Shown here: piece after piece, positions 9,618-37,803 of the stretch
Layout: every line of letters starts with the position of its first letter
How positions within the stretch are numbered: the first letter of the stretch is position 1
Assembly (NCBI GenBank): GCA_023231475.1
Contig: JALJEE010001061.1
Span: 1 to 64,000, forward strand
DNA from: Seison nebaliae
Lineage: Eukaryota
Length of the DNA: 64,000 nucleotides
Direction of reading: 5' to 3'
Notes under the pieces: model-generated
Seen by the model: only the letters and a program-made list of their open reading frames with translations
Databases searched by the model: none
What the model was told of the DNA's origin: nothing
Program-made: the position numbers and the translations under genes

Positions 9618-10578
9618 ATGAAATATTTATTCGTCATTCTCTGCATTTCATATGGTTAGCATGAATATTTAATCATTCCATTTAATCTTCCTTCTTAGCA
9701 TTTGCATATCCTCAAGATCATGAATGTCTCTCAAAAAGTGGAAGTTGTTTACCATCAGCTTCATGTCCGAACCATAATTACAAATCGGGTTTATGTCCAA
9801 ATGCACCTAACAATGTACGTTGTTGCTTTTCAGGTGACATTTTTTAAATTTCCTTCAAAATTCATTTTACCAAATAATCTGCAGCTCATAAACAAGACCA
9901 AGAATGTGTGAGTAAAGGAGGGAGTTGTTTGAGTAGTTCGGATTGTACGTTCGGCTCGACTCAATCCGGTTTATGTCCAAATGCTCCTTGGAATATTAAA
10001 TGTTGTTTACCGTCCGGTAGTACCGGTACCGTTTCAGGCTCATGTTATTATTTAATTAAAATATTATATTTAAAAATTCAAATTATCAGGTACTGTCCAT
10101 TCTTATCAGAATAGTCAATTCATCGGAAAGAGAGCATATGTGGAAGATGGTTTCCGATATGCCATGGACAAAATGAATAGTTATGCTAAGTCATGTGGAG
10201 TTCAAATTTATATCACCTCATCATTCCGTGTGGTGGGCAATATGGTCAATGGAGCTGTAGTGACACCAGCTTCACAGTCTAATCATCATGTGGGAAAAGC
10301 GATCGATTTCAATATCGCCGTTAATGGTCGTATTGTTTGTAACAGCAGCTGCTTATTGAGTTAATTTAAATTAATGGAATTTAATTTCATTCCATTAAAT
10401 TACAGGAAAATCACATAGTGGAGCAAAATGCTTCTTAAACAAAGTACAAACTGGTGGATTAACTTGGGGTGGAATTTGGTCCACAGCCGATCCAGTACAC
10501 ATCGACGATCGAGCTAACCGTAAATCTGGTTACGCTGCCATGAAAAAACGTTTACAAACGTATTGTCGAAACCTCTAA
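9618..10578 (+). CDS. Secreted peptidase M15 (LAS-type Zn metallopeptidase, CwlK/Ply500-like) with two N-terminal six-Cys repeats, 5 exons
   Basis: Exons 9618-9654, 9699-9833, 9885-10043, 10090-10359, 10406-10578. Signal peptide MKYLFVILCISYAFA, two C..GSCL...C...SGLCPNAP.N..CC repeats, then ITSSFR..SNHHVGKAID (H-x6-D)..LTWGGIW..DPVH. Confidence 0.8.
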
Positions 10579-10773
10579 CTAGTCAAGAGAGAACGAGTAA
10601 GAAAATGGAAAGAACTTATAATTGTTTCCTTTATTTTTCTGGGAAATAAAATAAACTTTCTTCATTTCAATAATTATGTGACATACGTTTCGAATGACGT
10701 CAATAAATTATTCATTCGAAGGAGATGAGTATGGATAAAATGAGAAATTTGTCTATACCTAATTGACGGATTG

Positions 10774-13025
10774 ATGAGATTATGTTGTTTCATTATGAGC
10801 TTTTGGTTAATTTGTCTCCTAGTCCTCGTTCTTCGAATTAATCCATTGACAATCGATTTTAATAATGACGTTCAGTCATCGTTAAAGGAAATTCAATTTC
10901 TACGAATACAATTTTCTGATGTCATTCCAGCTAATAATTTCCTTTTGTTTTATCGAAATGGAAATTTGTCTATCAATTCAACAATTTATGAAGAACTTCA
11001 ACAAGTTTCTTTCATTACCATTTTAATTCATAATTGATGGTTTTCGAAGAATGAATTAATTTGGTCAGTTCGATCGTTGAATGATATCAAATTACAAATT
11101 GTAGAGGAGAATATCGAAATTGAAATAATGCATAAGATTTCAATTGATAATATAAATAATTTATCAATAAAATTTATTCCATTCAATTCCAGTTAATTTC
11201 CACAAAATTTCTTCTCCACAATAAAATACATGGAAAATAGAACTAATTATTCAACAGGCCAATAAACAATATGACATCTTCCCAATACAAATCAGGAATG
11301 TAAATAAAGAATCATCTTTTTTGAAATTAATGGAAAATCGGTATTCCTCATATGCCATCCAATGGCACTATGGAAATGTTTTCTATAACGACATCTTACT
11401 AAGAAGGAGTTTGTATTAAATTTAAAAAAAAATTAATTAAACAATTTAAAAATTATTTCAAAACAGATATCGGTTACATAGAAAATGTTCAACAATTCAA
11501 TTTTGTTTTTGCAGAAACCAGTTCAATTAATTTATTACGATCAAGTTCAAATTAATGGAATTGATTATTATTCTATGGAACATTATTTTATTTTTTAAGA
11601 TTTTCATCTTAATATCAATTATCTCGTTTATTGTACCACCACAAATGATCTCGATAACACGAAACGGATTATCTTCATGAAAAATAACGTCATTAATTTT
11701 AAAAGTTTTTTTAATTTTAAATAATTTAAATTTTCTTTTTCTTTTAGATCGTCCAATTATTAATTTCGCTATTCATTTCCGCTCAAGTTTATTTCATTAT
11801 AAAAATTAAAATGATATTCACTTATCATTCACTAATTATTCAGCGGTTATCAATGGATATTCCTTTAGAGCCAATCGACATGACGCTTGTACCAATGTGG
11901 TTGACTTGAACAATTATTTTGGATACGACCGAAATTATACGAGTAGTAAATTGGTGAATAAGAGAATGATGGTATTTGAATGTAATTATTTTATAATAAA
12001 TGAATTAATTGGAATGTGGGAAACGAAGAAAGTGATATGGAAACTAGAAAATGTTCAAAAAGTAACTAGTCAATCATCTATTGATGAGGTGAAAGAAGGA
12101 AAATCGTATAATAAAGAAGTTGCGATTGTCATGACTTGTGCAATAGTTCTAATAATAGTTGGTCTTTTTTGCTGGGTTCTACCAATTGAAAAAGAAGAAT
12201 TGAACACATTAGAAAGAACTCATAGTACGGCACTCTCGTCTATTCATGATATTAATGAACGTCAATTAAATCTCTATACATCGTCTGGTAGTAGAAAATC
12301 GAAATCGAATGAGGAAATTGTGAAATTGGGAGGGAAACTTTTAAAAAAGAAAATCTCTTCATCAATCGGGAAAGATTTAGATAAGAAAGTTCCTTGGAAA
12401 CATTCGGAGAAGAAACCGTTTCTCGACATATTTCAAGAAAATATTAGATATATCATCGTCATCGACGACAATCCAGAAACTTATTGTCGAAAAGTTTCCA
12501 TATTTTTTCTAATTTCCTTTTAATTTTCCCCCTCAAGTTATCGAAGCGACAAATCCCGTCTGAATTAGGATTGAAATTTATCGATATTTTGGAAGACAAA
12601 GATAGAAAATTTATCTTTCATCCAACAAATTATGAAACTGGAAAAGAATTCAAATTATTCTCAACAAAGTCCATTATCGGAATTGGAAGTCATTCATTTC
12701 GAGGATGTCTCAAATTTTATCAAATCTCCTTACCCTCCTCCTTACGCAGTGTGCTCATATTGTTGAAAATAATTAAGATTTGTCAAAACATATCAAATAA
12801 ATGTCAAATACAATTCATCGGGTTCCTCTCATTTTGGAAGATATTTGGAAAATTAATATTTCTATTTTTCTAGTAAAAAGGAGAAAAAATCGTACAAGAA
12901 TGTCGTCGATTTATTTAGTAAAACTTATTCTCATGTTGTTCTAAAAGTTCGTCTTTTCCTCAATCAACTTTTCAATTCTTTAACAATTATAGAAAACGTG
13001 TCGATCATTCAATGATTATTATTAA
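10774..13025 (+). CDS. Hypothetical multi-exon single-pass membrane protein
   Basis: Hydrophobic N-terminus (FWLICLLVLVL), a later TM segment (VAIVMTCAIVLIIVGLFCWVL), and several ORF pieces separated by AT-rich GTT..AG segments. Exon structure only partly resolved. Confidence 0.45.
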
Positions 13026-17540: not shown

Positions 17541-19140
17541 ATGGTTTGTATCTTTCTCTTGTAATTATGTGAATTTTGAACAATTTTGTAGAGTCATCGT
17601 AAATTTGAACATCCACGTTGTGGTTCGTTGGGATTCCTCCCAAAAAAACGTACAAAACATCATCATGGAAAGATTAAGGCTTTCCCGAAAGATGATCGAT
17701 CGAAACCAGTTCACTTGACCGCCTTTATGGGATACAAAGCGGGAATGACACATATTCTCCGTGATGTCGATCGAGTCGGATCGAAACTGCATAAGAAGGA
17801 AACGGTAGAAGCCGTCACAATTATTGAGACGCCTCCAATTGTGATTGTGGGTTGTGTTGGATATATCGATACTCCGAGAGGACCACGTGCCTTCCGATCG
17901 ATTTTCGCACCTCACATGAGTGATGAATGTAAACGACGATTCTATAAACATTGGTTAGTTTCCTTTAAAAATTATTTAATTATTTCATTCCATTGTGAAA
18001 TTATAAATAATTAATTAAAAAAAAAAGTTTGATATTTCATATTGTTTCGATGATATCGATTTTATGTTGCGGGATCGAATTATCAATTCCATCACCGATT
18101 AACATCTAATTTATTATGAACAATATGATTTATCTATTGTAAATGATTGAGTCTCCGCTCATATGTCGATCATCTGTTATTAGAGAAATAGGATAATCGA
18201 ACGACGAATAAATGATGAGACCAGAAATTTACAGAAACATTCTATCATTTTCTCTTCTCTCCATTCCTTCAGGCGTAAGAGTGCCAAGAGTGCCTTCACC
18301 AAATATTCGAAACGTTGGGAGAGTGAAGATCAAATGAAAGAGATCGAACGTGATTTCCGAAAAATCGAGAAATTTTGTAGTAGTATTCGTGTCATTTGTC
18401 ATACTCAAGTCGCTATTTTGAAAAAACGTCAAAAGAAAGCTCATATTTTCGAAGTTCAAGTGAATGGTGGATCGATGGAAGATAAAGTGAAATGGATTCG
18501 ACAACATTTTGAACATAAAATTCCTGTGACTCAAGTATTTGAAGAGAATGAAACGATCGATTTATGTGGTGTTACTAAAGGTCACGGATTCAAAGGTGTC
18601 GTATCTCGATGGGGCGTTACGAAACTCCCAAGGAAAACACACAAGGGTTTGAGGAAAGTGGCATGTATTGGAGCGTGGCATCCGTCACGTGTCGCCTTCA
18701 CTGTGGCACGTGCTGGTCAGAAAGGATATCATCATCGAACAGAAATCAACAAGAAAATTTATCGAATTGGAAAATCGACTCAAAGAATCGACACGAAAAA
18801 TCGAGAGAAAGAAGGCGAAGGCGAAAGTACAGCGATCGGAAACGGTTCAACTCAATATGATCCAGTCGCTAAAGACATCACACCAATGGGCGGTTTCCCT
18901 CATTATGGTGTGGTGAATCAAGATTTCATCATGATCAAAGGATGTTGTGTCGGTTTGAGGAAGAGAGCCATCACCATGAGAAAGGCATTACAATTGCCGA
19001 CGAAACGAGCTGCTTTAGAGAAGATCTCATTGAAGTTCATCGATACGAGTAGCAAATTCGGTCATGGTCGTTTCCAAACGAAGAAGGAGAAGGCCACTTT
19101 CATGGGTCCAATGAAAGCAAAGACGGTGGTAACAGAATAA
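17541..19140 (+). CDS. RPL3: 60S ribosomal protein L3 (uL3), 3 exons
   Basis: [68 protein letters not shown]. Introns 17544-17591 (directly after the ATG) and 17954-18272. Confidence 0.98.
18037..18242 (+). ncRNA. Candidate box H/ACA snoRNA in RPL3 intron 2
   Basis: Hairpin 1: TCATATTGTT/AACAATATGA, ATGTTG/TAACAT, GAATT/AATTC. ANANNA-type boxes near 18120-18128. Hairpin 2: TGTAAAT/ATTTACA, GTCTC/GAGAC, TCAT/ATGA, GTCG/CGAC. ACA at 18237-18239, 15 nt after the upper stem. Confidence 0.6.
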
Positions 19141-37304: not shown

Positions 37305-37706
37305 TTATTTTCTTAATGGAAATGGAGTTGAACCGAACATCGAGTAATCGTAATCTTCCATTGTTGTATATTTTCCATTAATAAAATCATATTTTCGTGT
37401 TGTTGTTCTTCGTTTCGGTGGTGTGCTAATTGGAGGACGGACACCTAAAACTTGCTGTAATTGTTGTAAGGCTTGTTTGTTTTGTTGTAAATAATTTATA
37501 ATTTGCATGAGATCAAGTTGTTGTGGTTGTTGTTGAGGATATTGGAACTGATATTGGTATTGGTATGGATATTGTGGAGGATATTGTTGAGGATATTGTT
37601 GAGGATATTGTTGAGGATATCGTTGGGGTAGTTGCGTATATTGTTGAGAGTAACTTTGACCCAACAACACCCCAAAGACTGATAATAGAATGATCGTTTT
37701 GAACAT
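37305..37706 (-). CDS. Secreted Gln/Pro/Tyr-rich peptide, copy 2, with extra PQQY repeats, intronless
   Basis: MFKTIILLSVFGVLLGQSYSQQ..YPQQYPQQYPQQYPPQYPYQYQY..INYLQQNKQALQ..PPKRRTT..YTTMEDYDY..STPFPLRK. 12-bp unit ggatattgttga near 37579-37620. Confidence 0.85.
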   Translation of the reverse strand: MFKTIILLSVFGVLLGQSYSQQYTQLPQRYPQQYPQQYPQQYPPQYPYQYQYQFQYPQQQPQQLDLMQIINYLQQNKQALQQLQQVLGVRPPISTPPKRRTTTRKYDFINGKYTTMEDYDYSMFGSTPFPLRK

Positions 37707-37803
37707 TTTTAATAAATTATTTTTATAAAAAGTTTGCTGATAATTCTGCTGAAATTACCTACCAATTTATGTTCTCAATATAGACAAAGATTTTTTACAA
37801 ATT

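What the first reader, a model, noticed from the sequence alone, without database searches (positions are those of the whole stretch)
9618..10578. Intron-containing, secreted, bacterial/phage-type M15 peptidoglycan peptidase fused to two six-Cys modules: candidate domesticated antibacterial enzyme
Seen: the spliced product is a signal peptide, two exon-sized repeats (QDHECLSKSGSCLPSASCPNHNYKSGLCPNAPNNVRCC and QDQECVSKGGSCLSSSDCTFGSTQSGLCPNAPWNIKCC), a GSTGT linker, and a domain with ITSSFR, SNH-x6-D, WGG.W and DPVH. All four introns are phase 1 and three use the local GTT donor, so this is an integrated gene and not bacterial contamination. Established: SxH-x6-D plus a downstream D-x-x-H and an upstream Arg form the Zn/catalytic signature of M15 LAS enzymes such as the L-Ala-D-Glu endopeptidases CwlK and Ply500, which cut peptidoglycan stems. 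Inference: an HGT-derived cell-wall hydrolase for digesting or defending against bacteria, with defensin-like Cys modules added by exon duplication as possible wall-binding domains. The ORF track splits it into three unrelated-looking pieces. Related genes may exist in other invertebrates; I cannot check that here.
Basis: partly seen in the sequence, partly recalled or inferred. Interest (0 to 1): 0.8.

Follow-up and report, generated by a model that had tools for sequence, protein, structure and literature searches.

The report
Rusticalin-like cell-wall peptidase in a rotifer
This is a real, intron-containing gene of the marine rotifer Seison that encodes a likely secreted, bacterial-type enzyme predicted to cut bacterial cell walls, and it belongs to a protein design (rusticalin-like) already described in sea squirts, amphioxus, a coral and placozoans, so it mainly adds a new animal group to a known family.

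Summary
Five exons (9618-10578, four phase-1 introns of 44-51 nt) give a 257-aa protein: signal peptide, two six-Cys modules, a linker and an M15C (PF13539) domain with intact R157, H176, D183, D229 and H232. Its predicted fold is closest to the L-Ala-D-Glu endopeptidases Ply500 and LysB4. A diverged low-depth copy keeps three splice sites and the stop, and 21 of 27 changed codons are silent. The host is Seison nebaliae. The design is known: rusticalin-like proteins (Daugavet 2019, 2020), with 38% identity over 252 aa to an Oikopleura member. The nearest catalytic domain (57%, no gaps) is an amphioxus protein already in that paper's table. The same M15 subfamily occurs in a bdelloid rotifer, a nematode, a coral and a protist, so an old eukaryotic acquisition fits better than recent transfer. 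The closest prokaryotic relatives found are bacterial rather than phage. What is new: the first rotifer record in the papers searched; modules with shifted Cys spacing that look locally duplicated; and a tree position beside chordates rather than bdelloids (suggestive only). Activity and expression are untested. Interest is modest.

The parts
9618..9654 (+). Exon 1: start codon and most of the predicted signal peptide (residues 1-12)
   Evidence: 9-residue hydropathy 2.0-2.7 at the N-terminus; no window above 1.1 later
9655..9698 (+). Intron 1, 44 nt, GTT..AG, phase 1
9699..9833 (+). Exon 2: six-Cys module 1 (residues 22-55 at 9725-9826; spacing Cx6Cx5Cx9Cx8CC)
9834..9884 (+). Intron 2, 51 nt, GTG..AG, phase 1; acceptor kept in a diverged contig
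9885..10043 (+). Exon 3: six-Cys module 2 (residues 65-98 at 9905-10006, same spacing) and Gly/Ser/Thr linker (99-110)
   Evidence: low pLDDT at 105-108
10044..10089 (+). Intron 3, 46 nt, GTT..AG, phase 1, splitting the codon of Cys111 at the start of the catalytic domain
10090..10359 (+). Exon 4: first part of the M15C domain with R157 (10227-10229) and SxHxxGxAxD (10278-10307; H176, D183)
10360..10405 (+). Intron 4, 46 nt, GTT..AG, phase 1 within Arg201; donor kept in diverged contigs
10406..10578 (+). Exon 5: WGG.W, D229-x-x-H232 (10489-10500), terminal Cys254 and stop TAA
10645..10650 (+). AATAAA, candidate polyadenylation signal 67 nt after the stop
   Evidence: sequence match only

Best explanation
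A five-exon nuclear gene of the rotifer Seison nebaliae encodes a rusticalin-like protein, two six-cysteine modules joined to an M15C domain with all five active-site residues intact, that is likely secreted and is predicted to work as a zinc L-Ala-D-Glu endopeptidase on bacterial peptidoglycan, from a gene likely inherited through an old eukaryotic acquisition from bacteria. Mechanism, inferred from LysB4, ChiX and Ply500: H176, D183 and H232 hold Zn2+, D229 activates the water, R157 stabilises the intermediate, and the L-Ala/D-Glu bond of the stem peptide is cut. The basic mature protein (computed pI about 9.1) would act in the gut or on the body surface to digest or hold down bacteria. The modules most likely stabilise the enzyme or steer it to the wall and may be trimmed off, as reported for a placozoan lysozyme with such repeats. 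Shown: gene structure, motifs, family match, purifying selection, homologous range. Predicted: fold. Inferred: secretion, activity, bond cut, site of action, role of the modules, age of the transfer.
For: PF13539 above cut-off. A profile of 33 relatives hits only Ply500 and LysB4 in the PDB. The AlphaFold model (pLDDT 84) matches Ply500, LysB4 and ChiX first by Foldseek; by VIA, Ply500 Z 10.6 (rmsd 3.1, 122 aligned), LysB4 10.3, best Hedgehog 9.4. The SxHxxGxAxD motif and the Arg and Asp shown essential in LysB4 and ChiX (PMC6354061, PMC5778951, passages) are all present. D-x-x-H occurs in 319 of 323 family domains and E-x-x-H in 1. Bacterial relatives carry SH3_3 or PG_binding_1 where this protein has its modules. 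21 of 27 changed codons in a diverged copy are silent. 38% identity over 252 aa to Oikopleura E4X1L0, which is listed in the 2020 supplement, as is the nearest hit C3YYL0. One origin for all 26 eukaryote-type rows is not rejected (p-AU 0.39).
Against: I found no activity data for any rusticalin-like protein in the papers read. No RNA evidence was obtained. Support for a single eukaryotic clade is weak (62/68; not recovered), the set was partly defined from a first tree, and most of its rows are unnamed. A direct bacterial sister group is not rejected (p-AU 0.10 and 0.12). The Cys spacing departs from the published rusticalin motif. The VIA margin over Hedgehog is only 1.2 Z units.
Confidence: 0.72

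Rival explanations
1. The same kind of enzyme, but Seison obtained this copy sideways from another animal (a chordate, amphioxus-like lineage) and fitted it with its own duplicated Cys module.
For: The nearest domain is amphioxus C3YYL0 at 57% with no gap in 129 residues; the next hits are 47% or lower. The pair has 99/95 support and 80/93, inside a 9-row clade (95/92) whose named rows are chordates. The bdelloid copy lies in a separate clade. A clade of Seison plus the Rotaria and Plectus groups is rejected (p-AU 0.012; group named after seeing the tree).
Against: 57% lies within the range of ordinary Seison orthologues: RPL3 best non-self animal hits 61-67%; VPS28 about 51% and CDK11 about 68% to human by my count of the printed alignments. 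FastTree support for the pair was 0.46. Seison plus the Rotaria clade is not rejected (p-AU 0.079). Old paralogy with loss gives the same pattern, and only one representative per 50% cluster was sampled. Exon-4 GC3 of 0.37 equals that of host genes, 0.32-0.39.
Confidence: 0.12
2. An independent transfer from a marine bacterium into the seisonid lineage, with the rusticalin-like design rebuilt convergently.
For: The subfamily is widespread in bacteria: 144 of 174 candidate stretches in GTDB genomes were confirmed. AU tests do not reject a bacterial sister. The two modules resemble each other more than any other module. The two genomic eukaryotic relatives I could inspect do not share intron 4.
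Against: The best bacterial identity is about 45% against 57% for amphioxus. All three trees put Seison among eukaryote-type rows, and the forced bacterial trees are 42-43 log-likelihood units worse. The C-x3-C and downstream Cys are shared with the eukaryote-type rows and absent from most prokaryote-type rows of alignment A1.
Confidence: 0.08
3. The site is intact, but the protein works on something else: D-Ala-D-Ala or L,D-carboxypeptidase-type trimming, sensing of wall fragments, or a proenzyme held shut by its own modules.
For: VanX, VanY, LdcB and Hedgehog share the fold at Z 8-9.4. The module pair weakly matches tick carboxypeptidase inhibitor (E 0.026), and the 2019 paper raises the auto-inhibition idea. 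A Ciona paralogue has lost Zn ligands (P0291).
Against: The general base is Asp as in LysB4, ChiX and Ply500, not Glu as in VanX. Sequence-profile hits in the PDB are only L-Ala-D-Glu enzymes. All five site residues are kept.
Confidence: 0.08

Closest known systems
Rusticalin and rusticalin-like proteins (Daugavet et al. 2019, PMC6339383; 2020, PMC7379824)
   Same: Signal peptide, two six-Cys repeats, short linker and Peptidase_M15_4 domain; length 257 aa against 248-271; four introns as in the Trichoplax gene; 38% over 252 aa to Oikopleura E4X1L0.
   Different: Host is a gnathiferan rotifer. Module spacing is 6-5-9-8 rather than 6-(6,7)-8-7. The two modules are more alike (14 of 28 non-Cys residues) than the pairs in chordate members (6-11 of 28). 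There is no tRNA gene in the window. Unlike Styela rusticalin itself, the active site is complete.
Branchiostoma floridae C3YYL0 (P0010)
   Same: Nearest M15C domain, 57% identical with no gaps.
   Different: A 699-aa model with stanniocalcin-like regions, a canonical-spacing module and, by its database name, a g-type lysozyme in front of the peptidase; it may be a fused gene model.
L-Ala-D-Glu endopeptidases Ply500 (2vo9), LysB4 (6akv), ChiX (5opz); M15C / LAS enzymes
   Same: Predicted fold, SxHxxGxAxD, D-x-x-H and the upstream Arg.
   Different: Only 17-23% identity; the Seison protein has added cysteines, N-terminal Cys modules instead of a phage wall-binding domain, a signal peptide and introns.
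Unnamed bacterial M15_4 subfamily (Bacteroidota, Proteobacteria, Lentisphaerota, Chloroflexota, Cyanobacteria)
   Same: 31-45% identity, same TSSFR and GHAID core; the probable source pool.
   Different: Fused to SH3_3 or PG_binding_1; no single donor clade could be picked out.
Placozoan lysozyme PLys with cysteine-rich repeats (PMC12855814)
   Same: Same kind of N-terminal repeats in front of a peptidoglycan hydrolase of bacterial origin.
   Different: GH23 glycosidase; there the repeats were shown to stabilise the protein and to be removed on maturation.

Membership tests
Peptidase M15C / Peptidase_M15_4 (PF13539) | Score above the Pfam curated cut-off | tested here: met
   34.8 bits against 25, E 2.5e-8, residues 172-234
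Peptidase M15C / LAS enzymes | SxHxxGxAxD, downstream D-x-x-H and upstream Arg | tested here: met
   S174-H176-G179-A181-D183, D229/H232, R157; R157, H176 and D183 invariant in 33 rows; motif as given in PMC6354061
Peptidase M15C / LAS enzymes | Hedgehog/DD-peptidase fold closest to L-Ala-D-Glu endopeptidases | tested here: met
   Predicted model: Ply500 E 3.2e-5, Z 10.6; LysB4 Z 10.3; best Hedgehog Z 9.4
Peptidase M15C / LAS enzymes | Zn-dependent cleavage of L-Ala-D-Glu | not testable with these tools
   needs an assay
Rusticalin-like proteins (broad: Cys-rich repeats + M15_4, Daugavet 2020) | Signal peptide, no transmembrane segment | tested here: met
   hydropathy scan only; no dedicated predictor was run
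Rusticalin-like proteins (broad: Cys-rich repeats + M15_4, Daugavet 2020) | Two six-Cys repeats homologous to rusticalin-type repeats | tested here: met
   A profile of 16 strict-spacing modules from relatives scores both modules (18.2 and 20.6 bits); 0 of 200 Cys-fixed shuffles each reach this. The authors' own profile was not available.
Rusticalin-like proteins (broad: Cys-rich repeats + M15_4, Daugavet 2020) | Near full-length similarity to a listed member, both domains in order | tested here: met
   38% over 252 columns, residues 7-238, to Oikopleura E4X1L0, listed in the supplement
Rusticalin sensu stricto (Daugavet 2019) | Cys spacing Cx6Cx6-7Cx8Cx7CC | tested here: not met
   Both modules are Cx6Cx5Cx9Cx8CC; therefore filed in the broad class, not as a strict orthologue
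Rusticalin sensu stricto (Daugavet 2019) | Fourth intron at the position shared by Trichoplax, Ciona and amphioxus | tested here: inconclusive
   The position is given only in a figure that is not held. An Oikopleura-like genomic locus has a phase-0 intron about 8 codons later; a coral-like locus has none there.
Rusticalin sensu stricto (Daugavet 2019) | Repeats with a beta-defensin-like fold | tested here: inconclusive
   Module model pLDDT 84; 10 of 11 Foldseek rows are beta-defensins or defensin-like peptides and the other is tick carboxypeptidase inhibitor, but E >= 1.9; VIA Z 2.1-4.1
Hedgehog N-terminal signalling domain | Pfam Hedgehog match and a better fold match than to peptidases | tested here: not met
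   No Hedgehog family; 9-18% identity and lower rank than Ply500 and LysB4

The most novel reading that the evidence does not exclude
Seison's peptidase was passed horizontally between animals, from a chordate (amphioxus-like) lineage into a seisonid rotifer, and was then rebuilt with a locally duplicated defensin-like exon. Bacterial wall hydrolases would then be traded among marine animals and repeatedly capped with the same phase-1 module.
Probability: 0.12. Interest if true: 0.65.

Novelty: new member of a known kind. Interest (0 to 1): 0.3.

Why it matters
[quoted passage not shown] An intact member in a rotifer, plus module-less relatives in a bdelloid, a nematode and an ancyromonad protist, argues for an older or repeated acquisition from bacteria, and the prokaryotic sequences found are far closer than phage A500. 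The gene is kept under purifying selection in a strongly reduced genome. It is a compact, basic candidate for what would be, in the papers read, a first assay of an animal L-Ala-D-Glu endopeptidase. It is a range extension, not a new system.

Tried and rejected
Bacterial contamination: rejected; the gene has host-type introns among animal genes (VPS28, CDK11, RPL3, TENT5) and lies in one piece on 19-26 kb contigs of five runs (these may be the window's source, so they are not independent). The stored 832-aa model P0001, which joins residue 248 to the next gene: rejected as a likely mis-join, because it skips the conserved terminal Cys, a stop followed by AATAAA, and a stop region kept in a diverged contig. 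Expression: no RNA holder listed and no splice joints in contigs; this is no evidence either way. No whole genome is held, so paralogues could not be counted. tRNA/attP relic as in Ciona: 0 tRNA genes in the window; attP itself was not searched. Viral relatives: 2 of 61 candidates, 28-35%. The ESM Atlas gave no usable hit for the modules. Exon 4 alone gave no significant PDB sequence hit. The AU test on the 96-row tree did not finish and was run on 43 rows instead. Earlier scan findings: nothing returned. A paper search on Seison diet found nothing. No complex prediction was run.

Full report
1. Observation. Joining exons 9618-9654, 9699-9833, 9885-10043, 10090-10359 and 10406-10578 gives 257 residues and a stop, with four phase-1 introns of 44, 51, 46 and 46 nt. 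The stored gene model P0001 is identical over residues 1-248 and then runs into the next gene. At 80% likeness, short low-depth contigs (depth 2-4, against 13-26 for the main copy) align over exon sequence and break at the intron-2 acceptor (9883), just after the intron-3 donor (10047), at the intron-4 donor (10362) and just after the stop (10581). They are either a rarer co-sequenced lineage or a paralogue; I could not tell which. Of the 32 differences listed in exon 4, 24 are at third positions; 21 of 27 changed codons are silent, and none touches the site residues. This supports the exon borders and shows purifying selection. It is not RNA evidence.

2. Host. The window's RPL3 is 100% identical to a protein that the tool names Seison nebaliae, a seisonid rotifer. 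Seisonids live on leptostracan crustaceans, probably as commensals (PMC8351084, passages). That paper's main text has no match for 'HGT' or 'peptidase'; its supplements were not read.

3. Catalytic domain. PF13539 passes its cut-off, and the ESM Atlas ranks M15_4 clusters first (0.96). R157, H176 and D183 are invariant, and D229 and H232 nearly so, in 33 aligned rows. A profile of these rows finds only Ply500 and LysB4 among solved structures. The AlphaFold model of residues 1-248 (pLDDT 84, pTM 0.59) matches Ply500, LysB4 and ChiX first and ranks Ply500 (Z 10.6) and LysB4 (10.3) above Hedgehog (9.4 at best). In LysB4 the Zn ligands are His80, Asp87 and His132, and Arg50 and Asp129 are essential; ChiX Asp120 likewise (PMC6354061 and PMC5778951, passages). 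The Seison residues map onto these by motif; the printed alignments show the His and Asp motifs, while R157 is placed by motif order only. The base is Asp, not the Glu of VanX; 319 of 323 family domains have D-x-x-H. L-Ala-D-Glu endopeptidase activity is therefore the best inference and is untested.

4. Modules. Each sits in its own phase-1/1 exon. Both have the spacing Cx6Cx5Cx9Cx8CC and share 14 of 28 non-Cys residues and 72 of 121 aligned bases. They score higher against each other (121) than against any of 13 other modules (best 86-96, an unnamed one-module protein P0019). Local duplication or homogenisation is likely. They are homologous to rusticalin-type repeats beyond the Cys pattern. 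A model of module 2 (pLDDT 84) draws beta-defensin-like rows at weak scores, and the pair weakly matches tick carboxypeptidase inhibitor (E 0.026). Bacterial relatives have SH3_3 or PG_binding_1 at the same place, which favours targeting. In a placozoan lysozyme the repeats stabilise the protein and are cut off (PMC12855814, abstract and passages), which favours a pro-region role.

5. What is known. This design is the rusticalin-like family: signal peptide, two cysteine-rich repeats, linker and MD-clan peptidase similar to phage A500 L-Ala-D-Glu peptidase, reported from tunicates, cephalochordates, a coral and Trichoplax, with function untested (PMC6339383, parts 1-4 of 7 read). The follow-up (PMC7379824, parts 1-2 of 5 and supplement table rows) lists 382 repeat-bearing proteins, six with M15_4, among them E4X1L0 and C3YYL0, both of which came up here. 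It also lists three Lingula proteins with two repeats and a Hedgehog/DD-peptidase domain, so a protostome case of the broad design is already tabulated. None of the 70 'Metazoa' rows is a rotifer. Searches for 'rusticalin' (4 papers), M15 + rotifer + peptidoglycan + horizontal (1), peptidase M15 + HGT + metazoan + peptidoglycan (3) and L-alanyl-D-glutamate peptidase + invertebrate + HGT (4) showed no listing on a rotifer member; subscription papers are not covered.

6. Range and origin. The catalytic domain finds 448 representatives at E <= 0.001, of which the best 150 were listed. I looked up 30 proteins chosen as eukaryote-looking or by tree position; 10 of the 30 clusters carried an organism name, all eukaryotic: Branchiostoma floridae, Ciona intestinalis (2), C. 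savignyi, Oikopleura dioica, Orbicella faveolata, Plectus sambesii, Rotaria sordida and Fabomonas tropica (2; an ancyromonad). In prokaryotic genomes 144 of 174 candidates were confirmed, and the best 80 are 31-45% identical and spread over many phyla; viral contigs gave 2 of 61. For trees, 10 of 333 domains were dropped as partial and the rest reduced to 255 at 85% identity. FastTree put Seison in a 38-row clade (0.969) that holds all named eukaryotes; it also held one probably bacterial row (P0066), and one eukaryote-looking row (P0043) fell outside. IQ-TREE on 96 rows kept 37 of these on one side of a weak branch (62/68), paired Seison with amphioxus C3YYL0 (80/93), and put the Rotaria group apart (97/88). 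On 43 rows the pair had 99/95, inside a 9-row clade (95/92), and the eukaryote set needed two changes. AU tests, on groups named after seeing the trees: all eukaryote-type rows p 0.39; Seison + Rotaria group 0.079; Seison + Rotaria + Plectus groups 0.012; Seison + proteobacteria 0.10; Seison + Bacteroidota 0.12. With about 130 columns the power is low, the trees are unrooted, and the 'eukaryote-type' label of unnamed rows is partly circular. The data favour an old presence in eukaryotes with paralogy and loss. They do not fix one origin, a donor or the direction of transfer.

7. The amphioxus link. 57% identity with no gap stands out from the next hits at 47% or lower. However, ordinary Seison orthologues show about 51-68% identity to other animals (the latter two counted by eye from the alignments), and GC3 is host-like. 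Intron 4 is not shared with the two genomic relatives I could see: an Oikopleura-like locus has a phase-0 intron about 8 codons later (read by eye), and a coral-like locus has none there. The published conserved position is in a figure that is not held. Animal-to-animal transfer stays a minority reading (0.12).

8. Verdict. A real, constrained gene and a new member of a known class (Cys-rich repeats + M15C, rusticalin-like in the broad sense); the strict rusticalin spacing is not met. It works, most likely, as a secreted peptidoglycan endopeptidase for digestion or defence. Interest 0.3.

Noticed in passing
window 9618-13022 (+), stored protein P0001: The public 832-aa model fuses this gene to the next one through a 276-nt predicted intron from about 10550. 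The downstream part (about 10825-13022, with a hydrophobic segment in ORF 11810-12523) is probably a separate gene; that ORF had no Pfam hit.
   Followed up: partly
window 10825-13022 and 17955-18273: Predicted introns of this genome start GTT almost throughout (9 of 9 in the next gene, plus RPL3) and are mostly 44-61 nt, a +3 T donor bias unusual for animals (the comparison with other animals is recalled).
   Followed up: partly
window 35774-36181 (-) and 37305-37754 (-): Two tandem, near-identical genes for secreted-looking Gln/Tyr/Pro-rich proteins with no Pfam match.
   Followed up: partly
window 9905-10006 (module 2 model): The best wide structural match is residues 30-71 of Cypridina luciferase (24nk, Z 4.1, rmsd 1.9, 35% identity), hinting that this luciferase carries the same kind of module; the score is low.
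   Followed up: no
P0291/P0123 (Ciona intestinalis LOC100179664): A rusticalin-like paralogue in which the first and last Zn-binding His positions are replaced, a likely inactive form.
   Followed up: no
P0089, P0096, P0100: Bacterial-looking proteins of this M15 subfamily are also very Cys-rich (32-42 Cys) and match a loose six-Cys pattern 2-3 times; relation to the animal modules not tested.
   Followed up: no
L136:2766-3721: Genomic copy of the Oikopleura-like rusticalin-like gene with three introns, at positions unlike Seison's.
   Followed up: partly
P0023, P0004: Eukaryote-looking relatives with other add-ons: a bacterial SH3_3 domain (P0023) and two modules plus a hydrophobic C-terminal tail that may be a membrane anchor (P0004).
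   Followed up: no
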